Source: an uncultured bacterium (GTDB lineage: Bacteria; Fidelibacterota; Marinisomatia; Marinisomatales; AB-629-J13). From it: a DNA stretch of 36,479 nucleotides. Position 1 is the first letter of the stretch. Every line of letters begins with the position of its first letter. Both the position numbers and the translations under genes were made by a program. The notes beneath the pieces were generated by a model. That model saw only the letters and a program-made list of their open reading frames with translations. It had not been told where the DNA came from and did no database searches. Below are positions 2,771-30,761 of this stretch, one piece after another. The stretch is taken from contig CAZBBE010000002.1 in NCBI GenBank assembly GCA_964489755.1, positions 1-36,479 on the forward strand, in the 5' to 3' direction.

Positions 2771-4144
2771 ATGAATCAAAAACAATTAAAAACATTGCCT
2801 TCTATATCTGAAGTATTACTTGAGATAAAACGGTTAACAGACTTTGACCAAAGAATATTAATTCTTTGGATTAATGAAATATTAGAGAAGTATCGATCCA
2901 GTGCTATAAAAGGTAAATTGAAGCAGGATAGAAAAGAAATTATTCAGAATACTGTTTCGACTGTTTTAGAAAAATCACAAGGGAGTTTAAGACCTGTTAT
3001 TAATGGAACGGGAATCGTTCTTCATACGGGTCTAGGACGGGCACCCATCCACCGTCAAGTAATTAAAAAAGCCTCAAAAATGATGGAAGGATACTCAAAT
3101 TTAGAATTCCAGTTGGAGTCCGGTAAGAGAGGAAATCGTCAGTCTCATGTATCCCATTATTTCAGAGCTATAACTGGTACAGAATCAGCTATGGTTGTGA
3201 ACAATAATGCAGCAGCAGTTTTATTGGGAATTAACACATTGGCGGAAAATAAGGAAGTAATCGTTTCCCGAGGTCAGGAAGTGGAAATAGGGGGATCATT
3301 CCGAATCCCTGACATCATAGAAAAAAGCAGCGGAATATTAATGGAAGTTGGAACTACTAATAGAACTCACAGAAAAGATGTCGAAAAAGCTATAAATTCC
3401 AAAACTGGACTATTACTTTGGGTTCACACATCTAATTATAAAATCCATGGATTTACCCAGGATTTATCTCTTAAAACCCTTGTGGAAATTGGGAGGAAAA
3501 AACGAATTCCGGTCATGGCGGATTTAGGCAGTGGTGCTCTTCAAAATATCTCAAATCTAGGGCTTCCCAAAGAATTTTCTGTTCAGGAAATTATAAAGAT
3601 AAAACCCCAACTCACTACTTTTTCAGGAGATAAATTATTGGGAGGACCCCAGGCAGGGATTATGTTAGGATCAAGAAGGCTAATTCAAAAATGCGGTCAA
3701 AATCCCCTTTACCGAACGGTAAGATGCGATAAATTAACGATTTCCTTATTAGATGAAACTTTAAAGTTATTGGGAAGAAAAAAACAGGTTAAACACAATT
3801 TAGCATTATCTTTATTGGCAACTTCTGGAAAACAATTAGTTCGGCGAGTAAATCAGCTGGTGGATTTACTCCCTCAAAACCTTGTTCGATCATTTGGTAT
3901 ATCTGCCATTGAAACAAAGGTTGAAGCAGGCAGTGGTTCACTTCCTGTAAAGACCTTACTAAGCGCTGCTCTGGTGTTTTCTTCAAAAAAAATCAAACCT
4001 ACAGCACTGGCGAAAAGATTCAGGAAAGGCAATCCTCCATTAATCGGATATATTCACAAGAATAAATTTTATATTGATTTTAAATCTGTTCTTCCCGAAC
4101 AGGATAAAATCATTATTCAGCTTATTCAGGATAGCCTTTCATGA
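2771..4144 (+). CDS. selA: L-seryl-tRNA(Sec) selenium transferase SelA
   Basis: Close block matches to E. coli SelA recalled from memory: PVINGTGIVLHTGLGRAP, VVNNNAAAVLL, VSRGQEVEIGGSFRIPD, EVGTTNRTH, VHTSNYKI.GFT, FSGDKLLGGPQAGI (PLP lysine), SGSLP. Confidence 0.93.
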   Translation: MNQKQLKTLPSISEVLLEIKRLTDFDQRILILWINEILEKYRSSAIKGKLKQDRKEIIQNTVSTVLEKSQGSLRPVINGTGIVLHTGLGRAPIHRQVIKKASKMMEGYSNLEFQLESGKRGNRQSHVSHYFRAITGTESAMVVNNNAAAVLLGINTLAENKEVIVSRGQEVEIGGSFRIPDIIEKSSGILMEVGTTNRTHRKDVEKAINSKTGLLLWVHTSNYKIHGFTQDLSLKTLVEIGRKKRIPVMADLGSGALQNISNLGLPKEFSVQEIIKIKPQLTTFSGDKLLGGPQAGIMLGSRRLIQKCGQNPLYRTVRCDKLTISLLDETLKLLGRKKQVKHNLALSLLATSGKQLVRRVNQLVDLLPQNLVRSFGISAIETKVEAGSGSLPVKTLLSAALVFSSKKIKPTALAKRFRKGNPPLIGYIHKNKFYIDFKSVLPEQDKIIIQLIQDSLS

Positions 4145-6021
4145 ATCAGATTGTCATCGGTACTGCAGGGCATATTGATCATGGCAAAACAGCCCTTGTG
4201 AAAGCCCTAACCGGAGTAGATACCGATAGATTAGTTGAGGAGCAGAAACGGGGAATGACCATTGATTTAGGATTTGCATTTTTAAATGACCGTATTACCA
4301 TTATTGACGTTCCCGGTCATGAACGCTTTATACGGAATATGGTAGCAGGTGTATCTACCATTGATTTTGTAATCTTGGTGATAGCCTTGGATGATGGAAT
4401 GATGCCCCAAACCATGGAGCATTTAAACATAATTGATTTATTGAGGATTCCTGATGGCGTTATAGTTTTAACCAAATCTGATTTAATCAAGGATGGTCAA
4501 TGGGTGGATTTGGTTAAAGAAGAAATAAAGGAAAAGACTGAAGGAACCATTTTAGAAGGTAAACCCATCATTAAGACTTCAGTTAACACCAATGAAGGAA
4601 TTAAGGAATTATATGATCTACTGAGTTCTTTGGAAGGAGTTAAGGTTAAATCCCAAAATGATGAAAATTTCAGATTACAGATTGATCGAGTATTTCATAA
4701 AACCGGATATGGAATAATCCTCACCGGGACGGTACTCTCTGGAAATCTGACAATTGGGTCATCAGTTGGAGTTCAACCCTCAAATAAAACGGGGAAAGTA
4801 AGGGGACTTCAGAGTCATGGTGAACCGGTTGATTTTGTTTCGAAGGGAGATAGGGCAGCTGTTAATTTGACTGGAATTGAATTGGCGCATGTCTGGCGTG
4901 GTTCGGAACTTGTGACACCTAAGTCCATTCAAGCAACTCATCGAGCCATTGTCCATATAGAATTAATTGAAACTACAAAATGGAAATTAAAAACCCAGCA
5001 ACATATTCGGATCCATTTAGGAACATCGGAATCATTGGCTAAGATTGTTTATATCCCTAAAACAATTTCTGCCGGAGAATCCATAAACGCAGTTTTGGAA
5101 TTTAATAAACCGGTTACTACAGCATTGGATGATCGTTTTATTATACGGGCTTATTCCCCCATGGATACAATTGGAGGAGGAAAAATTTTGGATAAAGATC
5201 CAGAAGGAAATTGGAAAAAAATCAAAGTTCAATGTCAACGGTTATCGAAACAGGTGTCAGAACGTTTCTCTCAATTTATTACCTACTCAGACAATGTACC
5301 AAAATCAGTAGAATTTTGGGCTGATAAATTTTCAAAATCCAAGGAGTACATCCATCAATTGGTTGAATCCAATCAGTTAGTTAATAAAAAAAATATGGTG
5401 TTTTCTGAAAAGGGAAAAGATTTTTCAAAAAAAGCGATTTTAGATTACTTAACTGATTTTTATGAGAAGAATCCATATCGTGCATATATTAATTCGGAAT
5501 CTGTGCGGAATGAGTTAGGCTTCAGTCGATCCTGGTACGATTATATTGTTTCAAAATTAGATGGAAAGGAAATAACACTTCAAAAAGGCGGATTGACGCT
5601 AAAATCTCACAAAATTGAATTGTCCAAAAAGGATAAAAAAAGTTTGGAGCAAATTAAACATATCTTGTCCAAAATTCAATTTCTCCCCGTGTCATTAAAA
5701 GATATTGAAGAAAAGATCCAATGTGAATCTGATCAGATTCTTGAATTACTGCATGTGTTAAAACGTCAGGGATATTCACTAGATATTTCAAATCAACTGT
5801 GGATGAGTAGACCTGATTTGGATAGATTGATTGAAAAACTTGATGAGTACTATATTTCGAATGAAATTTTAAGTGTAGGAAAATTTAAATCAATGACGAA
5901 TCTTACACGAAAAACTGCTATTCCTCTTCTGGAATATTTAGATAAATCTGGTATTACATTCCGGAGGGGAAATGAACGTATTCAGGGATCAAAATTTCCC
6001 TCAAAACAAGAACGGGTGTGA
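4141..6021 (+). CDS. selB: Selenocysteine-specific translation elongation factor SelB
   Basis: N-terminal GTPase (GTAGHIDHGKTALVKALTG.DTDRL.EE..RGMTIDLGFA, DVPGHERF, TKSD). Long C-terminal extension of winged-helix type, 626 aa. ATGA overlap with the selA stop. Confidence 0.92.
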   Translation: MNQIVIGTAGHIDHGKTALVKALTGVDTDRLVEEQKRGMTIDLGFAFLNDRITIIDVPGHERFIRNMVAGVSTIDFVILVIALDDGMMPQTMEHLNIIDLLRIPDGVIVLTKSDLIKDGQWVDLVKEEIKEKTEGTILEGKPIIKTSVNTNEGIKELYDLLSSLEGVKVKSQNDENFRLQIDRVFHKTGYGIILTGTVLSGNLTIGSSVGVQPSNKTGKVRGLQSHGEPVDFVSKGDRAAVNLTGIELAHVWRGSELVTPKSIQATHRAIVHIELIETTKWKLKTQQHIRIHLGTSESLAKIVYIPKTISAGESINAVLEFNKPVTTALDDRFIIRAYSPMDTIGGGKILDKDPEGNWKKIKVQCQRLSKQVSERFSQFITYSDNVPKSVEFWADKFSKSKEYIHQLVESNQLVNKKNMVFSEKGKDFSKKAILDYLTDFYEKNPYRAYINSESVRNELGFSRSWYDYIVSKLDGKEITLQKGGLTLKSHKIELSKKDKKSLEQIKHILSKIQFLPVSLKDIEEKIQCESDQILELLHVLKRQGYSLDISNQLWMSRPDLDRLIEKLDEYYISNEILSVGKFKSMTNLTRKTAIPLLEYLDKSGITFRRGNERIQGSKFPSKQERV

Positions 6022-16158: not shown

Positions 16159-17661
16159 TTGAATACCATCATTCACCAAAAATTACTTCTCTCACTCTTA
16201 AGCGGACTATTCATCGGTTTATCTTATCCACCCCTACCGTTAGGATTTTTTGCCTGGTTTGGGCTCATACCTTTATTTCTATCATTAGAAGGTAGCGATT
16301 ATAAAGAATCATTAAAATATGGTTACTCGGCGGGAATCACTGCGCATTTTATCGTTCTATATTGGATTGGTTTTAATAGTGGAGCTGGATTTGTACCTGT
16401 TTTTCTTTCACTAATAGGTGCGATTTTTTATTTATCTCTATTCTGGGGGTTGTTTGCTGTTACTTTACAATATTTTTTACAGGAAAAGACCATCTTCCTT
16501 TGGTTTGCTCCTTTAATCTGGGTCACAATGGAATGGCTCAGGAGTTTGGGGCCACTTGGATTTCCGTGGATGGATTTAGCCCTTACCCAATCCCGATTCA
16601 TTCAGTTTATCCAAATAATGGACGTAACGGGTTCGTCTGGAGTTTCACTTTGGATTTTGATTTTGAATGTTCTTTTATATTTTGCAATTACGGTTAGAAA
16701 AGGAAATAGGATTTATTCTATAGCTGCCATCAGTTTACTTGTCGTTTTATGGCTGTTTGGTTCACATAAAATTAAATCTGTTGAAAAAGATTTTATCGGA
16801 AAGTCTATTGTCGTGGCAGTAACTCAACCTTCTGTGGACCCAAATGAAAAATGGGAAAAAGATCATCGAAAACAAACATTTGAACTCATGCATCAGCTTT
16901 TGGATAAAGCTGTGGAATTAGATCCTGATATGATTGTTTGGCCTGAAACCGCATTACCCAGTTATTTACGATTGTCCGGAAAAGATCGCTCGCCGATTCA
17001 GGAAAAAGTGAATAGAAATGAAATACCTTTATTTTCCGGAACGATAGACAGAGAAAATTCTGAGGAAGGGAAACCCCTTTATTTCAATGGATCCATTTTT
17101 TTTCAACCGCACAAACTTCCTGAAATATATCATAAAGTGAAATTAGTACCCTTTGCAGAATATGTTCCTTTATCCGGATATTTTCCATCATTGAATGATC
17201 TAAATTTTGGTCAGGGGAACTTTACAGCAGGAAATGAATTTACTTTATTTCAGTTTGACAAATTTTCATTTTCAAATCTGATTTGTTATGAATCCAGTTT
17301 ACCAGATATAGTGCGGAAATTTGTATTACAAGGCGCAGAGTTTTTAACCATCCAGGCAAATGACGGGTGGCTAGGAAAAACATCGGGCCCCTATCAACAT
17401 TTTGAAATTGCAAAAATGAGAGCTATAGAAAACCGAAGATCAATAGTGAGAAGTGCCAATACAGGAATCTCTGGGGTTATTCTGCCAACTGGAAAGATTA
17501 AAGTAATACAATCATTGGGAGAACGAGTTGTCTTTAAGGAAACTGTACCTTTGGCTGAATTCACAACTTTTTTTTCTAGGAATGGAAATATTTTAGGAAA
17601 ATGGGTTTCGCTTATATTTATTATATGTGTAGGAATAATTTTATGGATAAAAAAAATATAA
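16159..17661 (+). CDS. lnt: Apolipoprotein N-acyltransferase
   Basis: Multi-TM N-terminal half, then a CN-hydrolase domain (WPE, ICYES catalytic Cys, N.GWLG..., R.AIENRR..VRSANTGISG). 500 aa, TTG start. Confidence 0.88.
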   Translation: MNTIIHQKLLLSLLSGLFIGLSYPPLPLGFFAWFGLIPLFLSLEGSDYKESLKYGYSAGITAHFIVLYWIGFNSGAGFVPVFLSLIGAIFYLSLFWGLFAVTLQYFLQEKTIFLWFAPLIWVTMEWLRSLGPLGFPWMDLALTQSRFIQFIQIMDVTGSSGVSLWILILNVLLYFAITVRKGNRIYSIAAISLLVVLWLFGSHKIKSVEKDFIGKSIVVAVTQPSVDPNEKWEKDHRKQTFELMHQLLDKAVELDPDMIVWPETALPSYLRLSGKDRSPIQEKVNRNEIPLFSGTIDRENSEEGKPLYFNGSIFFQPHKLPEIYHKVKLVPFAEYVPLSGYFPSLNDLNFGQGNFTAGNEFTLFQFDKFSFSNLICYESSLPDIVRKFVLQGAEFLTIQANDGWLGKTSGPYQHFEIAKMRAIENRRSIVRSANTGISGVILPTGKIKVIQSLGERVVFKETVPLAEFTTFFSRNGNILGKWVSLIFIICVGIILWIKKI

Positions 17662-22216: not shown

Positions 22217-23185
22217 ATGAAATTTGCAAATCCCTGGTATTTATGTGCATTATTGCTCATTCCTCTAATGGAAATCTGGTATCGAAAATATGGCAAAAGC
22301 AAAGAAAGTGTCATAAATATATCTTCAAAAGAATTGATGATAGAATCTTTCATTACCGGTGGAAAATACAGACATTTGATTTTAAGAGTACTAGGTTTAA
22401 TTCTGTTATGTCTTATCATTCTTGGTCTTGCCAGGCCTCAACATGTGGACACATTAGAAAAAACCAAAGTGGAGGTAGTTGATATTGTTCTGGTTTTAGA
22501 TATTTCCAGCAGTATGCTGGCGGAAGATTTTAAACCCAATAGACTGGAAGCAGTCAAAAGAACTGCTGCACAATTTATCGAAAGTCGTTCCGGTGATAGA
22601 GTTGCATTGTTGGTCTTTGCTGGAGAAACATTTATTCAATGTCCTCTCACAGTTGATACGGAAGTTATTGGAAACTTATTAAGTGAAGTGACTGTTGCAG
22701 AGAGGGCTTATGACGGTACCGCAATCGGTATGGCAATTGTCAACGCAGTGAACAGACTTCGAGGAAGCACAGCCAAAAGTAAGGTAATGGTTCTGTTATC
22801 AGATGGAAGCAACAACGCTGGAGAACTGGACCCCCTGACAGCCGCAGATATTGCAACTGAATTTGACATAAAGATTTACACAATTGGAGCGGGAACAAAT
22901 CAGGCGACTACATTTATAACAAATCGAGGATATGTTAAAAATGAAATTGATGAAGAAACATTGAAAGAAATTGCCGCTCGAACTAAGGGCAAATATTTCC
23001 GTGCTACAGATGAGGAATCCCTGAGAGATGTTTATTCTGAAATTGACAATTTGGAGAGAACAGAAATTGAAGTAAAGGAATACACACGGTATAGGGAACT
23101 ATATAGTGTATTTTTTATTCCAGCATTGGTCATCGGCCTGTTCCATGAAATCTTGGAAAGGTTCATTTTTAAAAGAGGAATATAA
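22217..23185 (+). CDS. batA: BatA-type membrane-anchored von Willebrand factor A protein
   Basis: N-terminal F.NPW.L motif plus TM, a vWA MIDAS (DISSSM), a C-terminal TM, and its position in a batA-E-like cluster. Confidence 0.82.
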   Translation: MKFANPWYLCALLLIPLMEIWYRKYGKSKESVINISSKELMIESFITGGKYRHLILRVLGLILLCLIILGLARPQHVDTLEKTKVEVVDIVLVLDISSSMLAEDFKPNRLEAVKRTAAQFIESRSGDRVALLVFAGETFIQCPLTVDTEVIGNLLSEVTVAERAYDGTAIGMAIVNAVNRLRGSTAKSKVMVLLSDGSNNAGELDPLTAADIATEFDIKIYTIGAGTNQATTFITNRGYVKNEIDEETLKEIAARTKGKYFRATDEESLRDVYSEIDNLERTEIEVKEYTRYRELYSVFFIPALVIGLFHEILERFIFKRGI

Positions 23186-24204
23186 TGGATGTAAGATATC
23201 CCGTTGTATTTATCTTTCTGGTTGTGCTTGGCATTATCCTGTTTTTTGGAAAAAAAAGAAAGTCTATAACAAGTATGTTAAACATTCAATCTAACAATAT
23301 AAAAGACCAATTATTTGGAAATATAGATTTCAATAAGACAAATTGGCAAAAACGATGTCGTTTAGCGGGACTACTGTTTTTAATAATCTCTGCTTCTGGT
23401 ATCCAGATTGGGACACAAGTGAAACCGGTGGAGCGAAAAGGAGTTGATTTAATATTTTCTATGGATGTTTCCGTTAGTATGAATGCTGAAGACGTAAAAC
23501 CAAGCCGACTTGAAAAAGCAAAATTTGAGATTTCACAAATCATTCGCCAGCTCACAGGTGACCGTGTGGGAATCATCGTTTTTGCCGGAGCCAGTCACCT
23601 TTATTTACCCCTTACTTCTGATTACGAAGCCGCAATTTTATTTTTAAACGAGATAGATACGGAAATGATTTCCACACAGGGAACTGCCATCAGTTCTGCC
23701 CTTAATACGGGACTTTCTGCATTTTCAGATGAGAGTGAAAAATTCAAAGTATTAATTTTGGTCACGGATGGAGAGGACCATGAAGGAGAAGCAATTGGAA
23801 TTGCAGAAAAAGCAGCCCAGACCGGAATCATCATCCACACTGTCGGGGTTGGTTCCGTTTCGGGATCACTCATTCCGGTTTTGGATAAAGAAACAGGAGA
23901 CACGTCATACAAGAAAGATCGTCGGGGAAAATTTATTACATCCACCTTGAATGAAGGGGTCCTACAGAATATTGCCCGAGCAGGTAACGGTATTTATGTG
24001 CGATTTGACAATCGTGCAGCGAATTATAAGACAATCTCTCAAGAAATAAACCAGATGGAGAAAAAAACCATAAGCACTCATGAGTTTTCTGAATATGAGG
24101 ATCAATTTCAATTATTTGGAGTTATATCCTTATCCATGTTTTTAGCTGCATTTTTTATTCCGACAAAAAAAATAACTTCAAATGAGTCGGAGGAATTTAA
24201 TTGA
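23185..24204 (+). CDS. batB: BatB-type vWA protein
   Basis: TM, then vWA MIDAS (DVSVSM), VTDGEDHEG and a C-terminal TM. TAATG overlap with batA. Confidence 0.82.
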   Translation: MDVRYPVVFIFLVVLGIILFFGKKRKSITSMLNIQSNNIKDQLFGNIDFNKTNWQKRCRLAGLLFLIISASGIQIGTQVKPVERKGVDLIFSMDVSVSMNAEDVKPSRLEKAKFEISQIIRQLTGDRVGIIVFAGASHLYLPLTSDYEAAILFLNEIDTEMISTQGTAISSALNTGLSAFSDESEKFKVLILVTDGEDHEGEAIGIAEKAAQTGIIIHTVGVGSVSGSLIPVLDKETGDTSYKKDRRGKFITSTLNEGVLQNIARAGNGIYVRFDNRAANYKTISQEINQMEKKTISTHEFSEYEDQFQLFGVISLSMFLAAFFIPTKKITSNESEEFN

Positions 24205-25034
24205 AGTTTAATAGAATATTATTTTTAATCATTTTTTCTCTTTCGAGCACGATTTTAATAGCTGTTGATGATAAGGGTGTTCGCTATTTTAAGAATGGAG
24301 AATTTGAAAAAGCTCTGGGATATTATGAATCCATTTTGAGAAAACAAGTTGATAATAAAGAAGCGCAATTTGGATTAGGGACAACGTCATTTCAGACTCA
24401 GGACTTTATTGCATCTGAAGAAGCATTCAAGCAAGTATTGGAATCGGAAGATACTGAATTGCAATCTAAGGCGCATTACAACCTTGGCAATCTCTATTTT
24501 CAAAATCAGAAACTTGAAGAAAGTCTCGCCCATTATAAAAAATCAATTGAATTAAATCCTGCAGATCCAGAAGCAAAGTGGAATTATGAATTTGTTCAAA
24601 GAATGATGCAGGAACAATCTCAAAAAAACAAAGAATCGGATAATGACTCTCAGGAAAAAGACGAGAAAAACCCACAGGACAATCAATCACAAGATCAGAA
24701 GAAAGAGAAAAATAAAGAAAACCAGTCAGAAAAACAGAATGATGATGACTCTCAGGAAAACCATTCTGAACAAGCGGGAAAAAAAGAGCCAAACCAGGAA
24801 CAAAACAAGGATAAAAACACTAACAATTCACAAAAAGAAGATACAAATAACAAACCCCAGGAACAAATCCAACCCGAGCCAACCCCGGCTGAAAAGAATG
24901 AAGAAGGAGCCGATTCACTAAAAAACAAGATGAATGCGCAAGCCATTCTCAATGCATTAAAGGATAAAGAAAAAATTAATAAAAGACGCCAAATGAAAAA
25001 TGTGAAATCCAGAAAAACGGAAAAGGATTGGTAA
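24201..25034 (+). CDS. batC: BatC-type TPR protein with long Q/K/E/N-rich low-complexity tail
   Basis: Signal/anchor, TPR repeats (A..Y..S....P....A.F.LG...; HYNLGNLYF; Y.KSIELNP.D) and a charged low-complexity C-terminus. TTG start overlaps the batB stop. Confidence 0.7.
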   Translation: MKFNRILFLIIFSLSSTILIAVDDKGVRYFKNGEFEKALGYYESILRKQVDNKEAQFGLGTTSFQTQDFIASEEAFKQVLESEDTELQSKAHYNLGNLYFQNQKLEESLAHYKKSIELNPADPEAKWNYEFVQRMMQEQSQKNKESDNDSQEKDEKNPQDNQSQDQKKEKNKENQSEKQNDDDSQENHSEQAGKKEPNQEQNKDKNTNNSQKEDTNNKPQEQIQPEPTPAEKNEEGADSLKNKMNAQAILNALKDKEKINKRRQMKNVKSRKTEKDW

Positions 25035-25040
25035 CCAATT

Positions 25041-26786
25041 ATGAATCCAGTGGTTTATTTTTTGAAATATATTATTAATTATCTACCGTTATTGTTTGTT
25101 ATTCAATTGGCTTTTGGAGTAACTGTAAATGCAACGGTTGACCAAAATAAATTAACCTTAGATAATGTATTTGAATTCAAGGTTGATGCTATAGACGGTA
25201 GTGCATTACCACAGGTGGATATATCACCATTAAAGAAAAATTTTATAGTGGTAAACGGCCCCAGTCAGCAAACCAATATATCATGGATAAATGGGAAAAG
25301 GGCATCTATACATGGACTGTCCTGGACGTTATCTCCGAAGAAGATAGGAACATTATTTCTGCCCGCATTGACAGTGACCGTAGGAAAATCAAAACTCAAA
25401 ACAAAACCGATAAAATTACATGTATCAAAAAATCCTGTTAGTTCGAAATCAGGGAATTCCCAATCTTATTTTATTCGAGTGGAATTGGATAAGGATACAG
25501 CATTTTTAGGAGAACAAATCACTGTTACCTATCAATTATTTACCCGCACGGATTTATCCATAGAAAGTGTTGATTTACCTGAATTTGTTGGGTTTTGGAC
25601 GGAAAGTTTGTATTCTCCAAGACAGATAAATATGCGGGAGGTATCCTACAACGGAGTTCGATATAAAAAAGCAAAATTATATACTGTCGCTTTGTTTCCG
25701 ACGAAAATAGGAAAAATTACTATAGCTCCCTATACAATTAATTCAAAAGTCTATGTGGAGAATAAGAAATCAAAAAGGCGAGATCATTTTTTTGATGTTT
25801 TTGATTCATATTCTTCCAGGCAGGCGATTCGAAAAGTGATAAAATCTGAAACAAAAACAATTAATGTACTGCCATACCCTGATGGTAAACCTGATGATTT
25901 TACCGGAGCAGTGGGGAATTATACTGTTAAAACGTCCGTAGATGTTCAAAAGGTAAAAGCGAATGAAGCATTAACTTTTAATATCGAAGTGAAAGGAATG
26001 GGAAATCTTTCATTGTTCAGTTTGCCGGAATTAGCATTTCCAAAAACATTAGAGGTGTTTCCGCCGGTAAGTGAAATAAATAAAGATTCATTTCGCGATG
26101 AGATCTCGGGAACATTACAATGGGAGTATGTGGTTATTCCCCGTCAATCAGGTAGGTTTAATCTTCCTAGAGTAGAACTTCCTTTCTTTGACCCAAAGAC
26201 TACCACATGGAAAAGAGCTAAAGCTCACTCAATTCAGATTTCGGTTTCTCCCGGGTCTGTTCCCATCGGTTCTCCGGAGGGTTTAACAAAACAGGAGGTA
26301 GCACTGCTTGGGAAAGATATTCGTTATCACAGAACAACAGTACCCAAATGGAATCAGAAAAAACGTTTACCTATTGTGGCAGTTTTATTTTATTCTTTTG
26401 CTGTTTGTGGTTTTATTTTTCCCAGCATGGTAAACACCTACCAGAAAAAACACTTTGAAGGGATGGACGTACGCCAATCCAAAAAAGCGCTTAAAAAGGC
26501 GTTAAGTTCCCTTCAAAATTGGGGAGAGAATGAAATTGATATGAGTGCTTCCGTCCTTTATACATATTTAAAAGAAAAATTTTATCTCCAAACTGACAAG
26601 ATGGATCCAACCACGGTTCAGACAATTCTGGGAAATTATATCCCTGAACATGAAATGAATGAATTAATTCAGTTATTATACCGATGTGATGCGGGTCGTT
26701 TTTCTCCTCAAACGGTAACATTTAAAAATGATATTATCCCTGCCGCAATTTCTATTTTGAAGAAGATTGATAAATATGGCGTATAG
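25041..26786 (+). CDS. batD: BatD-type (oxygen-tolerance) protein
   Basis: 581 aa with a signal peptide, repeated beta-rich modules and a late TM segment (LPIVAVLFYSFAVCGFIF), as in BatD. Position in the cluster. Confidence 0.68.
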   Translation: MNPVVYFLKYIINYLPLLFVIQLAFGVTVNATVDQNKLTLDNVFEFKVDAIDGSALPQVDISPLKKNFIVVNGPSQQTNISWINGKRASIHGLSWTLSPKKIGTLFLPALTVTVGKSKLKTKPIKLHVSKNPVSSKSGNSQSYFIRVELDKDTAFLGEQITVTYQLFTRTDLSIESVDLPEFVGFWTESLYSPRQINMREVSYNGVRYKKAKLYTVALFPTKIGKITIAPYTINSKVYVENKKSKRRDHFFDVFDSYSSRQAIRKVIKSETKTINVLPYPDGKPDDFTGAVGNYTVKTSVDVQKVKANEALTFNIEVKGMGNLSLFSLPELAFPKTLEVFPPVSEINKDSFRDEISGTLQWEYVVIPRQSGRFNLPRVELPFFDPKTTTWKRAKAHSIQISVSPGSVPIGSPEGLTKQEVALLGKDIRYHRTTVPKWNQKKRLPIVAVLFYSFAVCGFIFPSMVNTYQKKHFEGMDVRQSKKALKKALSSLQNWGENEIDMSASVLYTYLKEKFYLQTDKMDPTTVQTILGNYIPEHEMNELIQLLYRCDAGRFSPQTVTFKNDIIPAAISILKKIDKYGV

Positions 26787-27513
26787 ATATATTATTTGTT
26801 TAGTCATATCCTTTGGATTAAGTCAAAATGCAGATTCATTATTTATGCAGGGCAGCTCTTATTTGGAATCAGGAAAATATGAGAAAGCGGTTGTGATGTT
26901 TGAAACAATATTAAATCAGGGATTTTTCCATGAAGATCTATACTATAATTTGGGAAATTCATACTACAGGTCAGGGAGTTATGGTCAAACAATTTGGGCT
27001 TACGAAAAAGCTATGGAATTAAATCCTCTGGATGGAGATACAAAATTCAATCTTGCCATTGCTAACACTTATGTAAAAGATCGAATTCCAGTCCCCGAAA
27101 CTCTTTTCCTTCTCAAGTGGTACAGGTTGCTCAAATCTTCTTTAACGTTTTCCCAATTTTTATCTATTTCAGCTTTATTTATTCTGTTGGCCTCGATTTA
27201 TTACCTTGTGGTCAAAGTTTTTCGAATTGATTTCAGTTGGCTTCCCTTTAAAATATTTTTATTTTGTTCATTTTTTCTACATGGGATTCTCCTCGATAAA
27301 TATTGGGAAATATCAGAAAAAAATGAAGGAATTATCACTGCTTATGAAGTGGAAGCATTCTCGGGTCCTTTTGTCCGCAGTGATGCTGTTTTATTCAAAA
27401 TGCATGAGGGGATTAAGGTATCCATTGACCATGACCAAGGAGGCTGGGTAGAAATATCATTATTGGATGGAAAAAAGGGTTGGATAAAAATCAATCAGTT
27501 GAGACTTTTATGA
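26776..27513 (+). CDS. batE: BatE-type TPR protein with C-terminal SH3-like domain
   Basis: TPR (YYNLGNSYYRSGSYGQTIWAYEKAMELNP.D), TM segments and a C-terminal SH3b-like stretch (GWVEISLLDGKKGWI). ATG 26776 is preferred over TTG 26767. Confidence 0.65.
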   Translation: MAYRYIICLVISFGLSQNADSLFMQGSSYLESGKYEKAVVMFETILNQGFFHEDLYYNLGNSYYRSGSYGQTIWAYEKAMELNPLDGDTKFNLAIANTYVKDRIPVPETLFLLKWYRLLKSSLTFSQFLSISALFILLASIYYLVVKVFRIDFSWLPFKIFLFCSFFLHGILLDKYWEISEKNEGIITAYEVEAFSGPFVRSDAVLFKMHEGIKVSIDHDQGGWVEISLLDGKKGWIKINQLRLL

Positions 27514-28162: not shown

Positions 28163-28486
28163 ATGAGTGTGAATTCAAAATTGGTTTATTCGACAGATCC
28201 CGACCTGTGTTTAGATGGAAAAGAAACAAAAAATAATATTGCTAATTCTGATCAGGATTTACGCATTTGGTTGGAAAACAAACCTGGGGGGAAAAAAGCA
28301 ACCATAGTGCGGGGATTTAACGGTTCTAAAATGGAATTGAAAAAATTGGGTAAAATATTAAGATCTTTGTGCCACGTGGGAGGAACAGAAAAGAAAGGAG
28401 AAATCATGATACAGGGGAATGTAAGAAATCAGGTCTATGACTATTTAATTAAAAATGGATATAATGCTAAATTAAGCGGTGGATAA
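28163..28486 (+). CDS. yciH: SUI1/eIF1-family translation initiation factor YciH
   Basis: 107 aa: VYSTDPD..., GGKKATIVRGF, L.K.L...C..GGT.K.GEI.IQG..R..V...L...GY. Confidence 0.88.
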   Translation: MSVNSKLVYSTDPDLCLDGKETKNNIANSDQDLRIWLENKPGGKKATIVRGFNGSKMELKKLGKILRSLCHVGGTEKKGEIMIQGNVRNQVYDYLIKNGYNAKLSGG

Positions 28487-28512: not shown

Positions 28513-29679
28513 ATGAATCATTTGAAAAATAAGAGCGGATTGGTCTTTACTCTCATCGTTTCAGGGTTATTTTTCTCCTGTACGGGTTCGGAAAAACGAG
28601 ACCTTAAGGGAACCCTATCTTTTGTCTTATCTGCTAATGTTAGGGCCCAATTCGACCCCTGCGGCTGAAAGAATAACCCTCTTGGCGGTCTGCCAAGAAA
28701 ATTAACATATATTAATGGGTTGAGAGAGCAGGGAAAAGATCCGGTAATTCTGGATGCAGGAGAGGTGTTGTTCACGTCGCCCCTTGTGTTGGATAACACT
28801 CGGTCTGCTGATGAATATAAAGCGAAAAATATCATCAAAGGGTATGAGGAGATTGGGTGTGATGCAATCAATATTGGAGGATATGAACTTGCTGGAGGCG
28901 TTAAATTTTTACAGAGCATAATGGATGCAACGGATATTCCATTTATTTCTGCAAATCTTCGTATTAAATCTACCGGAAAATTATTTACTGACCCATATGT
29001 GATTGTTGACCGTGAACCTTTCAGAATCGGCATCATTGGACTTACAAATCTTCTGAAGGATGGAAACAAGTATATCGTAATGGATGACATATATGATTCA
29101 GGGAAGAAATACATGAAGGAAATCCGGAGAAAAGCTGATTTAGTGGTCATACTGGTGAATGCTGACAAAAAAGAAAAACAGGTTTTGCAGGATGAGTTCA
29201 GGGATGCGGATTACATTGTGATGAGCAGGGATATATCTAGGACAAAACAGGGACAACCTCCGGCGAAAAATTTGCCACCAATTTATTGTCCCGGAAAGCA
29301 GGGGAAATACATGGCATTTATGGAAATGGACATTACTCACATTGACTCACCACACGTGGATGTCAGCTATTATAACAAGCAGATACAGACTTCTGAACGG
29401 CGGATTGCAAACTATCAAAAGAGGAACCCTGAGATACCTCTCAAAGAATTATATACGGAAAACCAAGCTATTTATAGTCAAATTGTGACCTTGGAAAAGC
29501 AAATGCTGGATGCCAAAAACACAATAGCCAATGCGAATAACAAGATAGAATTTGAACTGATCCCAATGAGCAGGAAGATCCCGGATGACCCGAAAATGCT
29601 TACATTTGTTGACGATATTTTATCAAAGGATAAACAATTAAGGGACAACTCTTTTTCACCTATTATTAAGAAGAAATGA
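28513..29679 (+). CDS. Predicted selenocysteine-containing lipoprotein (Sec52 encoded by TGA 28666-28668; C-G-U motif) with a degenerate 5'-nucleotidase/metallophosphatase-like N-domain
   Basis: ATG 28513 is in the same frame as listed ORF 28720-29679, with only one stop (TGA) between them. Signal peptide plus lipobox LFFSC lie upstream of the TGA. SECIS-like hairpin 11 nt downstream. The domain similarity spans the TGA. selA/selB are in the window. Confidence 0.75.
28666..28698 (+). promoter_or_regulatory. UGA(Sec) codon plus bacterial SECIS-like hairpin
   Basis: UGA, then an 11-nt spacer (AAGAAUAACCC), then stem U-CUUGGC (28680-28686) / GCCAAG-A (28692-28698) with apical loop GGUCU (28687-28691). 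Spacing and the G/U-containing loop resemble the E. coli fdhF SECIS. Confidence 0.7.
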
Positions 29680-30164
29680 CCATCGATTCCCCCCTGCGCC
29701 AAAGTGTGTTTATTCTAACCATTTCATCTATTTTTTCTATTGGCTATAATACCATACGTTTGGACAGTCTTGACCTCATCTATGAAAAGCCGGCGGACGC
29801 AGGAATTAGTAAACTTGACTCTCTTCTTGCTGCTGAGACCATTTTGGTTGCACCGGTTATGGTTGACCTTGAACTGGCGAAAAAGATGTACGACCTTGGT
29901 ATTATGTTTGTAGATGCACGGGATAAAGATGAATACGATGAAAGTCATATCACAGGGGCTATTCTTGAACCTACCATTGCAGGTGAATTAACAAAGAATT
30001 TTCCTCCAGACAAACCACTCATCACCTATTGTAGCGGGGGACACTGTGACTTGAGTTTTGAACTTGCAATGGAACTTATGGAAGAATGGAATTATGAAAA
30101 AGTGTTCGTCTATGAAGGGGGACTTCCGGAATGGGAAGAAGCTGGGTATCCGGTGCACAGGTAA
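29676..30164 (+). CDS. Membrane-anchored single-domain rhodanese-like sulfurtransferase
   Basis: N-terminal TM (VFILTISSIFSIGYNTI). Rhodanese domain FVDARDKDEYDESHI.GA, active-site loop YCSGGHCDLS, GG...W..AGYPV. ATGA overlap with the preceding selenoprotein gene. Confidence 0.85.
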   Translation: MTIDSPLRQSVFILTISSIFSIGYNTIRLDSLDLIYEKPADAGISKLDSLLAAETILVAPVMVDLELAKKMYDLGIMFVDARDKDEYDESHITGAILEPTIAGELTKNFPPDKPLITYCSGGHCDLSFELAMELMEEWNYEKVFVYEGGLPEWEEAGYPVHR

Positions 30165-30166
30165 GA

Positions 30167-30610
30167 ATGAATTATTTGCAAAACAAATGGATTTCTCTGG
30201 TATTCCGTCTCTTTTTAGGTGCGATGTTCATGTATGCCAGTTTGGATAAAATCAATGATCCAGAAACATTTTCAGGTGACATAAGAGCCTATCAAATTGT
30301 TCCGTTTGGATTGGAAAATTCTGTGGCTATCATTCTACCGTGGTTAGAACTATTGATTGGCATTGGCCTAGTTATCGGAGTTATGGTTGATGGTTCCGCT
30401 CTCATATCTATGGGTTTACTGGTGGTATTTATTATAGCTATCAGTTCTGCAATTTTACGAGGATATAACATTGATTGTGGATGTGGATTAAAAGAAGGGG
30501 AAGTAGTGGGTACCCAAAAATTGCTGGAAAATACTATTTTCTTTTTAATGGGATTGTTCATTATAAACAGACCCTCAACATTGTATGAAATTTTTCCTAA
30601 ATCGGATTGA
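30167..30610 (+). CDS. MauE/DoxX-family redox-associated membrane protein
   Basis: About 4 TM segments. RLFLGAMFMYASLDKI.DP..F...I.AY.I.P, LPWLELLIG and the family-typical G..IDCGCG motif. ATG 30167 lies 2 nt after the rhodanese stop; the ORF track starts it at 30131. Confidence 0.8.
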   Translation: MNYLQNKWISLVFRLFLGAMFMYASLDKINDPETFSGDIRAYQIVPFGLENSVAIILPWLELLIGIGLVIGVMVDGSALISMGLLVVFIIAISSAILRGYNIDCGCGLKEGEVVGTQKLLENTIFFLMGLFIINRPSTLYEIFPKSD

Positions 30611-30648: not shown

Positions 30649-30721
<73 letters not shown>

Positions 30722-30761
30722 CAATGCTCTGAATGGTGCATTTGTATTTTCATTTATACTG

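What the first reader, a model, noticed from the sequence alone, without database searches (positions are those of the whole stretch)
28513..30610. Tightly linked three-gene module: Sec-lipoprotein, membrane-anchored rhodanese and MauE/DoxX membrane protein, a candidate envelope selenol/thiol or chalcogen-trafficking system
The Sec-lipoprotein stop overlaps the rhodanese start (ATGA at 29676-29679), which indicates translational coupling. The MauE/DoxX ATG (30167) lies 2 nt after the rhodanese stop, so all three genes probably form one operon, bounded downstream by tRNA-Gly. The rhodanese has an N-terminal TM anchor and a two-Cys active loop (YCSGGHC). MauE/DoxX proteins are membrane redox partners: MauE is linked to disulfide formation in methylamine dehydrogenase, and DoxX-type proteins to thiosulfate/quinone chemistry. 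This one carries D-C-G-C-G, echoing the D-P-C-G-U of the lipoprotein. Rhodanese with MauE/DoxX is a recurrent pairing. Adding a selenocysteine pseudo-phosphatase lipoprotein suggests a relay in which persulfide or perselenide, or electrons, pass between membrane, anchor and lipoprotein. The function is unknown and this is hypothesis only.
Basis: inference. Interest (0 to 1): 0.82.

Follow-up and report, generated by a model that had tools for sequence, protein, structure and literature searches.

The report
Conserved selenoprotein–rhodanese–MauE envelope module
Three tightly packed genes in a marine Marinimicrobia genome encode a selenocysteine lipoprotein built on a disabled phosphatase fold, an exported two-cysteine rhodanese and a MauE/DoxX membrane protein. 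They stay together across the phylum, sometimes reordered or fused, which points to a periplasmic thiol/selenol redox relay and gives a long-known orphan selenoprotein family testable partners.

Summary
Gene 28513-29679 has an in-frame UGA (28666-28668) followed by a SECIS hairpin. The UGA is conserved in all 168 related loci, the hairpin shows compensatory changes, and SelA/SelB lie in the same window. The protein has the UshA 5'-nucleotidase N-domain fold, but its metal-ligand motifs are lost and a C-G-U motif sits on a loop beside the old active site.

This "UshA-like" selenoprotein family is already known (GOS 2008; NCBIfam NF041198). What appears new is its linkage to the rhodanese (invariant Cx4C) and the MauE protein (invariant CGC):
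- 62 of 68 species-level Marinimicrobia loci have lipoprotein, rhodanese, MauE in that order.
- A second clade has rhodanese, MauE, selenoprotein in 50 of 50 loci, with rhodanese and MauE fused in 15.
- A GC-rich unassigned contig has CcdA, a CxxU variant, rhodanese, MauE.
- Canonical NF041198 members carry a fused tetraheme cytochrome c instead and lack rhodanese/MauE neighbours.

Charge bias and the fusion architecture put all redox motifs on the periplasmic side.

Best reading: a periplasmic Cys/Sec redox relay ending in the selenoprotein, probably acting on sulfur or selenium compounds. The substrate and the direction of electron flow are unproven. I rate it a new variant of a known kind, of moderately high interest.

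The parts
28513..29679 (+). Gene for a 388-aa selenocysteine lipoprotein. It has the UshA-like metallophosphoesterase fold with degenerate metal motifs, the motif D-P-C-G-U (U52), and a C-terminal helical hairpin in place of a nucleotide-binding or cytochrome domain.
   Evidence: Translation. NF041198 E 4e-61 but 207 bits, below the 275 cut-off. AF2 model of the 61%-identical P0023, pLDDT 88.7. Foldseek top hits are the E. coli UshA N-domain, E 1e-19. Profile against PDB UshA E 1e-16, with GNHE aligned to G-k-y-e.
28513..28581 (+). Lipoprotein signal peptide with lipobox L-F-F-S-C (Cys23).
   Evidence: Read directly from the sequence. A lipobox-type N-terminus is present in nearly all clade-A homologues. 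The second paralogues and clade B have plain signal peptides.
28666..28668 (+). In-frame UGA decoded as selenocysteine (U52).
   Evidence: TGA in 90/90 clade-A and 78/78 clade-B loci, with protein conservation on both sides. Cys (P-C-G-C) occupies this position in other lineages. The 'W' shown here in database proteins is a gene-calling artefact, because the DNA reads TGA.
28681..28697 (+). Bacterial SECIS hairpin CUUGGC-GGUCU-GCCAAG. The stem starts 15 nt after the U of UGA.
   Evidence: Folding. The GGUCU loop is near-invariant. Stem pair 3 is TA 10, AT 21, GC 39, GT 5, TG 1, so 76/76 are standard pairs against a shuffle mean of 46 and maximum of 58. No Rfam family matched.
29676..30164 (+). 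Exported single-domain rhodanese of 162 aa. It has an N-terminal hydrophobic export or anchor segment and the active loop Y-C119-S-G-G-H-C124 (Cx4C).
   Evidence: PF00581 56.5 bits. Both Cys are 100% conserved in 68 clade-A sequences, and Cx4C is found in 45 of 52 clade-B ORFs. Charge bias: N-terminus +1.1, linker -2.7. PDB sequence relatives include BH2092 (YCWGPAC) and Wolinella Sud.
30167..30610 (+). MauE/DoxX-family four-helix membrane protein of 147 aa, with D-C104-G-C106-G in the loop between TM3 and TM4.
   Evidence: PF07291 104 bits and PF07681 37.5 bits. CGC is invariant in 66 clade-A and 70 clade-B sequences. Termini are net positive and loops 1 and 3 net negative. AF2 model with four TM helices, pLDDT 76.6.
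29676..29679 (+). ATGA overlap of the lipoprotein stop and the rhodanese start.
   Evidence: Read directly from the sequence. Gaps of -4 to +8 nt are the commonest class at this junction across loci. At the rhodanese-MauE junction, overlaps of -4 or -8 nt occur in 59/63 loci.
30649..30722 (+). tRNA-Gly(GCC), the downstream boundary of the block.
   Evidence: ARAGORN and Rfam. tRNA-Gly follows mauE in 48 of 56 loci that are not cut by a contig end.
28163..28486 (+). yciH/SUI1-family gene 26 nt upstream. It is a conserved neighbour and possibly co-transcribed, but it is probably not part of the functional module.
   Evidence: PF01253 65.5 bits. It lies upstream of the lipoprotein in 68/80 loci, including loci that lack rhodanese and MauE. 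It is absent from the short L094 contig of clade B.
2771..6021 (+). selA (2771-4144) and selB (4141-6021), the Sec-insertion machinery needed to decode the UGA.
   Evidence: PF03841 421 bits. PF00009, PF09107 and PF25461 match SelB.

Best explanation
The three genes encode one extracytoplasmic cysteine/selenocysteine redox relay.

Components:
- The MauE/DoxX-type membrane protein exposes an invariant C-G-C pair at the periplasmic end of TM3. It is the membrane entry or exit point for redox equivalents. By analogy with DoxD/DoxX and MauE, it probably couples to the quinone pool; this is inferred.
- The exported rhodanese, with its invariant Cx4C loop, is the mobile carrier. It cycles either between dithiol and disulfide or through a Cys-persulfide.
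- The Sec lipoprotein is the catalytic end. Its UshA-type metallophosphoesterase fold has lost the dimetal ligands and has gained a C-G-U motif on a flexible loop beside the old active site. That motif can form a selenenylsulfide.

In other lineages the same catalytic domain is wired through a fused tetraheme cytochrome c instead. This argues that the domain catalyses a periplasmic electron-transfer reaction rather than hydrolysis.

The most likely substrates are low-molecular-weight chalcogen compounds: polysulfide or persulfide, thiosulfate or tetrathionate, or selenium species.

Shown here: Sec decoding, the fold, loss of the metal motifs, the conserved linkage, gene fusion and reordering, and the same-side placement of the motifs.
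Inferred: which protein passes what to which, the link to quinone, the substrate and the direction of flow.

The confidence of 0.55 is for the general claim of a functional three-protein periplasmic Cys/Sec relay. Any one specific substrate deserves no more than about 0.2.
For: Sec decoding:
- The UGA is conserved in 168/168 loci.
- The SECIS stem shows compensatory changes at synonymous sites.
- selA and selB lie in the window.

Fold and active site:
- UshA N-domain fold.
- GNHE becomes GGYE, and DxH becomes N-V-R or S-V-H.
- The CGU loop has a lower pLDDT of about 65, consistent with a mobile loop.

Linkage:
- Clade A: 62/68 loci carry lipoprotein, rhodanese, MauE in that order.
- Clade B: 50/50 loci carry rhodanese, MauE, Sec protein.
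- 15 clade-B loci fuse rhodanese and MauE.
- L095 (GC 53%): CcdA/DsbD-TM, a UshA-like CxxU protein, rhodanese with Cx4C, MauE with CGC.
- Start/stop overlaps are conserved.

Invariant redox residues: Cx4C and CGC.

Same compartment:
- Charge bias across homologues.
- Exactly one extra TM separates the rhodanese from MauE in the fusions.
- The Sec protein has a lipoprotein or ordinary signal peptide.

Alternative redox wiring:
- NF041198 proper carries four CxxCH motifs, has a further c-type cytochrome next door, and lacks rhodanese/MauE neighbours.
- A TlpA-like thioredoxin sits directly upstream of the second paralogue.

Precedents:
- The M. tuberculosis DoxX-SseA (rhodanese) complex (cited in PMC8638967).
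- The Sec-dependent periplasmic polysulfide reductase MccSep/ExtKL (PMC13510729). ExtH, a rhodanese-like lipoprotein of the G. sulfurreducens extHIJKL cluster (PMC5877670 abstract; ref 58), is encoded in the same cluster.
- TsoB, a rhodanese/DsbD fusion selenoprotein with Ux4U (PMC13188914; NF045694 hit).

Sulfur hint: family members score against SoxB TIGR04486 as well as or better than against UshA (72 against 47 bits for L095; 66 against 44 for P0201).
Against: - There are no biochemical or expression data.
- yciH and tRNA-Gly are about as conserved as neighbours in clade A, so part of that synteny is simple block retention.
- Some lineages keep the Sec lipoprotein without an adjacent rhodanese or MauE: L007 and L044 for certain; L055, L057 and L067 show none but their contigs end within 150-580 nt downstream. 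The five second paralogues also lack them. The lipoprotein therefore does not strictly need them in cis.
- Three short Cys-form relatives and two tetraheme forms have no rhodanese/MauE neighbours.
- Both clades with names attached are Marinimicrobia. Only one unassigned contig, L095, hints at a wider spread.
- Many homologues end in His-rich tails, which suggests metal binding rather than pure thiol chemistry.
- The MauE model has no solved structural relative, and its link to quinone is untested.
- Topology rests on charge bias and the fusion architecture, not on a dedicated predictor.
Confidence: 0.55

Rival explanations
1. Soft-metal handling. The Sec lipoprotein would be a periplasmic metal-binding or metallochaperone protein for Cu, Zn, Ni, Cd or Hg. 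It would use Cys50/Sec52 and a His-rich C-terminal tail. Rhodanese and MauE would serve only to keep the Cys/Sec pair reduced.
For: - About 40% of clade-A and most clade-B homologues end in ..DHSGHNH..GDPHHGHNH or ..HHHNHNHH.
- CxU/CxC motifs bind thiophilic metals (general chemistry).
- The fold derives from a dimetal enzyme.
- MauE gives a weak hit to the DoxX-like Cu-RiPP maturation protein HvfX, E 4e-5.
Against: - The window protein and its closest relatives lack the His tail (it ends ..PIIKKK), yet they keep the trio.
- The fused tetraheme cytochrome in NF041198 members argues for electron transfer, not storage.
- No metal transporter or regulator is linked in any locus inspected.
Confidence: 0.15
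2. A Dsb-like protein-folding system. MauE would act as a DsbB or DsbD analogue. Rhodanese and the Sec lipoprotein would act as periplasmic oxidoreductases that make, break or isomerise disulfides in envelope proteins rather than acting on small molecules.
For: - MauE is genetically linked to disulfide-rich methylamine dehydrogenase maturation (established knowledge).
- A TlpA-like thioredoxin neighbours the paralogue.
- CcdA/DsbD-TM is adjacent in L095.
- CxC motifs are typical shuttle disulfides, as in the Erv2p C-G-C motif (own knowledge).
- The E. coli rhodanese PspE can support disulfide formation (own knowledge).
Against: - The catalytic protein has no thioredoxin fold.
- A tetraheme fusion and a SoxB/UshA-type substrate cleft suit a small-molecule substrate better.
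- No candidate client protein is linked.
Confidence: 0.2
3. No functional link. The three genes would merely sit in a slowly rearranging synteny block (yciH ... tRNA-Gly) and would have unrelated roles.
For: - yciH lies upstream in 68/80 loci and tRNA-Gly downstream in 48/56.
- Several lineages keep the lipoprotein without rhodanese and MauE.
Against: - The trio persists after reordering in clade B, in 50/50 loci.
- Rhodanese and MauE fuse in 15 loci.
- The trio recurs with a different UshA-like subfamily in a GC-rich contig.
- Start/stop overlaps are conserved.
- Rhodanese and MauE are lost together, never singly.
Confidence: 0.05
4. The UGA is a genuine stop codon. The region would then hold a short 51-aa peptide gene plus a separate 319-aa gene, or a pseudogene, and there would be no selenoprotein.
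For: Gene callers split the gene at the UGA in most database entries.
Against: - The UGA is 100% conserved in 168 loci at 35-83% protein identity, with conserved residues immediately on both sides.
- A covarying SECIS hairpin follows it.
- Cys occupies the aligned position in other lineages.
- selA and selB lie in the window.
- The family is recognised as a selenoprotein (PMC2398784; NF041198).
Confidence: 0.01

Closest known systems
UshA-like (seleno)protein, NCBIfam NF041198 (COG0737 'UshA-like' CxU selenoprotein of Zhang & Gladyshev 2008)
   Same: Homologous N-terminal domain of about 360 residues, the P-C-G-U motif, a Sec/Cys dimorphism, and a signal peptide. NF041198 is the best NCBIfam hit (E 4e-61). 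The family is reported as one of the top-20 marine selenoprotein families (PMC2398784).
   Different: The window protein scores 207 bits, below the 275 cut-off, and matches only model positions 8-384 of 519. True members score 531-569 bits and carry a C-terminal tetraheme cytochrome c domain with four CxxCH motifs. The window protein has none. It is a lipoprotein and is linked to rhodanese and MauE, whereas the two tetraheme members inspected (both Cys forms) are followed by another c-type cytochrome.
E. coli UshA / CpdB / SoxB metallophosphoesterase (5'-nucleotidase) superfamily
   Same: The fold of the N-terminal catalytic domain (Foldseek E 1e-19, TMq 0.53; profile E 1e-16). It is also periplasmic.
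   Different: The dimetal ligands are lost (GNHE becomes GGYE; DxH becomes N-V-R). There is no PF02872 C-terminal nucleotide-binding domain, and a helical hairpin takes its place. A new C-G-U motif lies just after motif I. It should not be a phosphoesterase.
TsoB, rhodanese/DsbD-fusion selenoprotein of the Tso operon (NF045694)
   Same: A rhodanese domain with two chalcogen residues spaced x4 (Ux4U there, Cx4C here), joined to a membrane thiol/disulfide-transport domain and encoded with other selenoproteins (PMC13188914). Weak domain-level hits at E 1e-8. L095 carries a DsbD-TM gene beside the trio.
   Different: Here the rhodanese uses Cys, not Sec. The membrane partner is MauE/DoxX, not DsbD, and is fused only in 15 clade-B loci. 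The partner selenoprotein is UshA-like, not TsoA or TsoC. Scores lie far below the TsoB cut-off (33 against 805 bits).
MauE-MauD of methylamine dehydrogenase maturation, and the DoxX-SseA complex of M. tuberculosis
   Same: A MauE/DoxX membrane protein working with an extracytoplasmic thiol-redox or sulfurtransferase partner. The DoxX-rhodanese (SseA) complex is linked to thiol homeostasis (cited in PMC8638967).
   Different: There are no mau genes, no MauD and no SodA here. The rhodanese is exported and carries Cx4C. A selenoprotein is the third partner.
MccSep (ExtKL) pentaheme selenoprotein polysulfide reductase, encoded in the same Geobacter cluster as the rhodanese-like lipoprotein ExtH
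   Same: A periplasmic Sec-plus-Cys catalytic site fed by c-type haems, encoded in the extHIJKL cluster that also holds a rhodanese-like lipoprotein. It acts on polysulfide (PMC13510729). It is a functional analogue of the tetraheme UshA-like forms.
   Different: There is no sequence or fold relationship to the UshA-like domain. In MccSep the catalysis takes place on a haem centre. The window system has no haem.

Membership tests
NF041198 UshA-like (seleno)protein | Whole-protein HMM score at or above the curated cut-off of 275 bits | tested here: not met
   207 bits, matching model positions 8-384 of 519. Tetraheme members score 531-569 bits over the full model.
NF041198 UshA-like (seleno)protein | P-C-G-U (or P-C-G-C) motif near the N-terminus | tested here: met
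   D-P-C-G-U at residues 48-52. The motif is conserved across the family.
NF041198 UshA-like (seleno)protein | C-terminal tetraheme cytochrome c domain (four CxxCH motifs; PF13435) | tested here: not met
   No CxxCH motif and no cytochrome Pfam hit in the window protein. Four CxxCH motifs are present in P0268, P0279, P0201, P0264 and others.
Calcineurin-like metallophosphoesterase / 5'-nucleotidase (UshA, CpdB, SoxB) | Alpha/beta sandwich fold of the N-terminal catalytic domain | tested here: met
   AF2 model of the 61%-identical homologue P0023, pLDDT 88.7. Foldseek hits to 1oie, 2ush and 1hp1 at E about 1e-19.
Calcineurin-like metallophosphoesterase / 5'-nucleotidase (UshA, CpdB, SoxB) | Dimetal-ligand motifs DxH, GD, GNH(D/E), H and GHxH | tested here: not met
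   GNHEF aligns to G-G-Y-E-L. DxHGH aligns to N-V-R-A-Q, or S-V-H-G-Q in relatives. GD is E in the window protein. There is no PF00149 hit.
Calcineurin-like metallophosphoesterase / 5'-nucleotidase (UshA, CpdB, SoxB) | C-terminal 5'-nucleotidase substrate-binding domain (PF02872) | tested here: not met
   No Pfam hit. The model shows a helical hairpin over residues 283-376 instead.
Bacterial selenoprotein | Conserved in-frame UGA with protein conservation on both sides, and Cys in some homologues | tested here: met
   TGA in 90/90 and 78/78 loci. Cys forms carry P-C-G-C.
Bacterial selenoprotein | SECIS hairpin just downstream of the UGA | tested here: met
   A 6-bp stem with a GGUCU loop at 28681-28697. 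Compensatory changes at 76/76 against a shuffle maximum of 58. No Rfam model matched.
Bacterial selenoprotein | Sec machinery in the genome (selA, selB, selD, tRNA-Sec) | tested here: inconclusive
   selA and selB are present in the window. selD and tRNA-Sec are not in the 36-kb window and could not be searched for elsewhere in the genome.
Rhodanese (PF00581) | HMM score above the gathering cut-off, and a catalytic Cys in the active-site loop | tested here: met
   56.5 bits against 22.2. C119 aligns with the active-site Cys of 6mxv and BH2092 and is invariant.
NF041203 rhodanese-related (seleno)protein (LYCAU) | Score at or above 115 bits, and the L-Y-C-A-U motif | tested here: not met
   52 bits. 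The motif is Y-C-S-G-G-H-C, with no Sec.
MauE (PF07291) / DoxX (PF07681) | HMM score above the gathering cut-off, and a four-TM architecture | tested here: met
   104.2 and 37.5 bits. Four TM helices in the AF2 model.
Mau methylamine-utilisation system | MauE encoded with MauD (thioredoxin-like) and the mauA/mauB dehydrogenase genes | tested here: not met
   None of these lie in the window. A TlpA-like gene occurs only beside the second paralogue in other genomes.
TsoB rhodanese/DsbD-fusion selenoprotein (NF045694) | Score at or above 805 bits, a Ux4U motif and a fused DsbD membrane domain | tested here: not met
   33.5 bits, at domain level only. The motif is Cx4C, not Ux4U. The membrane partner is MauE, which is separate in the window.
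Bacterial lipoprotein | Signal peptide ending in a lipobox with an invariant Cys | tested here: met
   ..SGLFFS-C23. The feature is conserved in clade A. No SignalP/LipoP run was possible.

The most novel reading that the evidence does not exclude
The UshA-like C-G-U domain would be a new type of chalcogen oxidoreductase, built on a phosphoesterase fold that has lost its metals. In Marinimicrobia it would form, together with an exported Cx4C rhodanese and a MauE protein acting as a quinone-coupled CxC disulfide relay (a DsbB-like role in an unrelated fold), a periplasmic (poly)sulfide/thiosulfate (or selenium):quinone oxidoreductase. That would be an unrecognised and very abundant enzyme of the cryptic marine sulfur or selenium cycle.
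Probability: 0.15. Interest if true: 0.85.

Novelty: new variant of a known kind. Interest (0 to 1): 0.62.

Why it matters
The UshA-like CxU proteins were listed in 2008 among the twenty most abundant selenoprotein families in ocean metagenomes. Unlike nearly all the others, they had no recognisable redox context and no proposed function.

This analysis gives the family partners and a location. The partners are an exported Cx4C rhodanese and a CGC-bearing MauE membrane protein, sometimes fused to each other, or alternatively a fused tetraheme cytochrome. The location is the periplasmic face of the inner membrane.

An orphan family thus becomes a concrete three-protein system that can be expressed and assayed. 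Marinimicrobia (SAR406) are among the most abundant deep-ocean bacteria and have been implicated in sulfur cycling. A phylum-wide Sec-dependent periplasmic redox module could therefore matter for marine sulfur or selenium turnover.

The analysis also provides the first strong comparative evidence that MauE/DoxX proteins and rhodaneses work as a physical pair. In addition, it shows a metallophosphoesterase fold re-used for Cys/Sec chemistry.

Tried and rejected
- Rfam, at gathering and at E-value thresholds, found no SECIS family. The only weak hit was a spurious manA match over the hairpin.
- The sigma-70 promoter and terminator scan gave counts no higher than shuffles, so it says nothing about transcript boundaries.
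- Folding the hairpin region alone gave z = -1.4, which is not significant. The support comes from covariation, not from energy.
I used P0023, 61% identical and with W at the Sec site, so the local geometry of the C-G-U loop is not trustworthy.
- The MauE model found no PDB neighbour (best E 0.97). A DsbB/VKOR-like fold could therefore be neither supported nor excluded.
- The MauE homologue search returned only Marinimicrobia orthologues and gave no view outside the phylum.
- L100 was too short to be informative.
- I first mapped D48/C50 onto UshA D41/H43. The alignment with canonical members shows instead that the C-G-U motif lies 4-6 residues after motif I, so I dropped that mapping.
- I rejected Trp at the Sec position in the "full-length" database proteins. 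It is a code-4 gene-calling artefact, because the DNA reads TGA.
- I rejected a real nucleotidase function, because the metal motifs are lost.
- I considered counting yciH as a fourth member of the module. It is retained where rhodanese and MauE are absent, and it is absent from the one clade-B contig inspected for it, so I treat it as a synteny neighbour only.

Full report
**1. The observation**

- The ORF starts at ATG 28513, after an AAAGGAAG ribosome-binding-like stretch.
- It encodes a lipoprotein signal peptide (..LFFS-C23).
- It reaches TGA at 28666-28668 inside the sequence D-P-C-G-*, and continues in frame to the stop at 29677-29679. Read through, it gives a 388-aa protein.
- That stop overlaps the rhodanese ATG (ATGA, 29676-29679).
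- The rhodanese stop (TAA, 30162-30164) is followed 2 nt later by the MauE ATG at 30167.
- tRNA-Gly(GCC) lies at 30649-30722.
- Pfam assigns PF00581 (rhodanese, 56.5 bits) and PF07291/PF07681 (MauE/DoxX, 104 and 37.5 bits).
- Public gene callers start MauE at ATG 30131 (159 aa). Homologues are 147-149 aa, which favours 30167.

**2. The UGA encodes selenocysteine**

A genome scan found relatives in 138 species-representative genomes. Nearly all of the 80 kept are Marinimicrobia (Neomarinimicrobiota, Fidelibacterota or FCB-group) MAGs.
- The codon is TGA in all 90 loci examined at 35-83% protein identity, and conserved residues flank it on both sides.
- It is TGA again in 78/78 loci of a second clade.
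- "Full-length" database proteins that show Trp at this position are artefacts, because their DNA reads TGA.
- A hairpin, CU[N]GGC-GGUCU-G[Y]C[N']AG, starts 15 nt after the U of the UGA.
- Its third pair falls on the wobble positions of a Leu codon and a Pro/Ser codon. It is T:A (10), A:T (21), G:C (39), G:T (5) or T:G (1), so 76/76 are standard pairs. Ten thousand shuffles gave a mean of 46 and a maximum of 58.
- The GGUCU loop resembles the apical loop of the E. coli fdhF SECIS (my own recollection).
- Rfam has no matching model.
- The window also encodes SelA (2771-4144) and SelB (4141-6021).
- Other lineages have Cys at the aligned position (P-C-G-C).

**3. What the lipoprotein is**

Its best NCBIfam hit is NF041198, "UshA-like (seleno)protein" (E 4e-61). 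The score is only 207 bits against a cut-off of 275, and only model positions 8-384 of 519 are matched.

An AlphaFold2 model of the 61%-identical homologue P0023 (pLDDT 88.7) matches the N-terminal metallophosphoesterase domain of E. coli UshA (Foldseek E 1e-19). A family profile hits UshA in the PDB at E 1e-16.

The dimetal ligands are gone. GNHEF aligns with G-G-Y-E-L. The DxHGH motif aligns with N-V-R-A-Q, or S-V-H-G-Q in relatives. The C-G-U motif lies a few residues after motif I, on a loop of lower confidence (pLDDT about 65). The C-terminal nucleotide-binding domain of UshA is replaced by a helical hairpin. "Pseudo-phosphatase" is therefore an apt description.

The family is not new.
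- "COG0737, UshA-like, CxU" was listed among the major selenoprotein families of the Global Ocean Sampling metagenomes, with 76 Sec sequences and 92 Cys homologues. It was one of the few families without a recognised redox motif context (PMC2398784).
- It appears in later reviews (PMC9312934; PMC13188914).
- No function is given in any of these papers.

**4. The wider family and a Rosetta-stone fusion**

A profile search of 1.84 billion cluster representatives found 182 clusters at E below 1e-30. They share (E/D)-P-C-G-(C/U)...G-G-L.
- The longer members (445-540 aa), in both Sec and Cys forms, carry four CxxCH motifs and PF13435 (cytochrome c554-like) at the C-terminus. One example is the protein of Ca. 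Electronema halotolerans.
- Only these members pass the NF041198 cut-off (531-569 bits, full model length).
- In two such loci the next gene encodes another c-type cytochrome, and no rhodanese or MauE gene is present.

The catalytic domain is thus physically wired to haems in one branch of the family. This argues that it catalyses a periplasmic electron-transfer reaction.

Some members score better against SoxB than against UshA (72 against 47 bits for L095; 66 against 44 for P0201). I treat this only as a hint towards sulfur chemistry.

**5. The three-gene linkage**

*Clade A, to which the window belongs*
- Of 68 species-representative loci with at least 1 kb of downstream sequence, 62 have lipoprotein, rhodanese and MauE adjacent and in that order.
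- Five of the six exceptions are second paralogues without a lipobox. The sixth is L044.
- The metagenome contig L007 also lacks rhodanese and MauE; there tRNA-Gly follows the lipoprotein directly.
- L055, L057 and L067 show neither gene either, but their contigs end 150-580 nt after the lipoprotein.
- Rhodanese and MauE are never lost singly.
- The rhodanese-MauE junction overlaps by 4 or 8 nt in 59/63 loci. The lipoprotein-rhodanese junction most often overlaps by 4 nt or has a gap of 8 nt or less.
- A caveat: yciH/SUI1 lies upstream in 68/80 loci, and tRNA-Gly lies downstream in 48/56 loci. Part of this conservation is therefore simple block retention.

*Clade B*
- These are 80 metagenome loci. 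Two of their contigs (L128, L133) carry NCBI protein names assigning them to Marinimicrobia.
- They have a different gene order: rhodanese, MauE, UshA-like Sec protein.
- All 50 loci with enough upstream sequence carry both partners.
- In 15 loci rhodanese and MauE are one ORF, with exactly one extra transmembrane helix between the two domains.

*Contig L095 (GC 53% against 36% for the window; taxon unknown)*
- Its genes run CcdA/DsbD-TM, a UshA-like protein with F-A-C-P-S-U (CxxU), rhodanese with Y-C-D-G-V-D-C, and MauE with A-C-G-C-F.

*Other contexts*
- In two genomes a TlpA-like thioredoxin gene sits directly upstream of the second paralogue.
- Three short Cys-form relatives have no such neighbours.

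Reordering, fusion and recurrence with a different subfamily together rule out pure synteny as the explanation.

**6. Redox residues and topology**

- The two rhodanese cysteines (Cx4C) are invariant in 68 clade-A sequences, and the spacing is 4 in 45 of 52 clade-B ORFs. The three divergent clade-B rhodaneses read by eye (L156, L160, L178) also carry C-W-N-P-x-C.
- The MauE C-G-C motif is invariant in 66 and 70 sequences respectively.
- Across homologues the MauE termini are net positive and loops 1 and 3 (the CGC loop) are net negative. The rhodanese N-terminus is positive and the region after its hydrophobic segment is negative. By the positive-inside rule, the rhodanese domain and the CGC loop both face the periplasm.
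- The fusions give independent support. One TM helix between the rhodanese domain and an N-in MauE places the rhodanese domain and the TM3-TM4 loop on the same side.
- The Sec protein carries a lipoprotein or ordinary signal peptide.
- The rhodanese hydrophobic segment is short, about 15 residues. It could be a cleavable signal peptide rather than an anchor.
- No dedicated topology predictor was available.

**7. Mechanism**

My best explanation is a periplasmic Cys/Sec relay: MauE (CGC) exchanges with rhodanese (Cx4C), which exchanges with the UshA-like selenoprotein (CGU). The selenoprotein is the catalytic end, and a tetraheme cytochrome provides the alternative wiring in other lineages.

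Precedents that make this plausible:
- the DoxX-SseA (rhodanese) complex of M. tuberculosis (cited in PMC8638967);
- MauE's role in disulfide-rich methylamine dehydrogenase maturation, and DoxD in thiosulfate:quinone oxidoreductase (established knowledge, recalled);
- TsoB, a rhodanese/DsbD-fusion selenoprotein with Ux4U, the same spacing (PMC13188914);
- MccSep/ExtKL, a periplasmic pentaheme Sec enzyme that reduces polysulfide (PMC13510729), encoded in the Geobacter extHIJKL cluster, which also holds the rhodanese-like lipoprotein ExtH;
- CxC motifs as strained shuttle disulfides, as in Erv2p (my own knowledge).

The substrate (polysulfide or persulfide, thiosulfate, selenium species) and the direction of electron flow are inferences with low individual confidence.

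Rival readings:
- soft-metal handling, suggested by the His-rich C-terminal tails of many homologues, although the window protein lacks one;
- a Dsb-like protein-folding role.

**8. Novelty and verdict**

The selenoprotein family, rhodanese and MauE are all known kinds. I found no paper that links them: a search for MauE + rhodanese + selenocysteine returned nothing, and a search for MauE + rhodanese returned two irrelevant papers.

The window protein fails the curated NF041198 test on score and on domain architecture, so it belongs to an uncurated cytochrome-less subfamily. I classify the finding as a new variant of a known kind, namely an extracytoplasmic thiol/selenol relay.

It is of moderately high interest because it gives an abundant orphan marine selenoprotein family defined partners, a defined location and a testable function. 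The chemistry remains to be shown.

Noticed in passing
window 2771-6021: selA (2771-4144) and selB (4141-6021) overlap by 4 nt and lie between an MFS transporter gene and mutS. The Sec-decoding machinery is therefore on the same contig as the selenoprotein. No tRNA-Sec or selD was found in the window.
   Followed up: partly
window 28163-28486, and L010-L089: A yciH/SUI1-family translation factor gene sits directly upstream of the Sec lipoprotein in 68/80 species-level loci, including loci that lack rhodanese and MauE. tRNA-Gly follows mauE in 48/56 loci. I did not test whether the yciH adjacency has any link to Sec decoding or is plain synteny.
   Followed up: partly
P0023, P0027-P0031, P0126, P0142-P0149 (database proteins): Public protein collections hold this selenoprotein in two wrong forms. 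It is either cut at the UGA, starting again at an internal M/L codon in ..P-[LM]-GGL.., or given at full length with Trp at the Sec position. The second form is evidently the product of genetic-code-4 gene calling on short contigs.
   Followed up: yes
C-termini of homologues in L011, L017, L031, L038-L082, and clade B L101-L180: Many homologues end in a His-rich tail (..DHSGHNH, ..GDPHHGHNH, ..HHHNHNHHIKEK). The window protein and its closest relative L010 end in ..PIIKKK, whereas L011, at 83% identity, has the tail. This suggests an optional metal-binding appendage. It remains unexplained.
   Followed up: partly
L071 4393-5001 and L078 4230-4898 (upstream of the second paralogue): Some Marinimicrobia genomes carry a second, non-lipoprotein UshA-like Sec paralogue without rhodanese or MauE. 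In two of these loci an exported TlpA-like thioredoxin (WCKPC; PF00578/PF08534) lies directly upstream.
   Followed up: partly
L102, L104-L107, L110, L116, L122, L125, L152, L158, L161, L162, L165, L171: These loci carry natural rhodanese-MauE fusion proteins of about 350-380 aa. The layout is an N-terminal hydrophobic segment, a Cx4C rhodanese domain, one extra TM helix, and a four-TM MauE domain with CGC. I found no such fusion described in the papers searched.
   Followed up: yes
L095 70-2973: A GC-rich (53%) unassigned contig carries CcdA/DsbD-TM, a UshA-like selenoprotein with C-P-S-U (CxxU), rhodanese and MauE. The selenoprotein scores below the cut-off of both NCBIfam UshA-like models and scores higher to SoxB (72 bits) than to UshA (47 bits).
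   Followed up: partly
L014 (CAXRJK010000112.1) and L072 (CAJWMM010000125.1): Contigs labelled 'Winogradskyella sp.' and 'uncultured Gammaproteobacteria' carry the Marinimicrobia-type yciH-lipoprotein-rhodanese(-MauE) block at 69% and 37% identity. They are probably mis-binned contigs in those MAGs.
   Followed up: no
window 22217-27513 and 16159-17661: A BatA-BatD-like aerotolerance operon (VWA, BatD and TPR genes) lies just upstream of the module. An apolipoprotein N-acyltransferase gene (lnt) is also present. These are ordinary context genes.
   Followed up: no
window 28643-28785: A weak Rfam 'manA RNA' match (21.5 bits against a gathering score of 55.2) overlaps the SECIS hairpin. I judge it to be a chance match driven by the hairpin.
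   Followed up: yes
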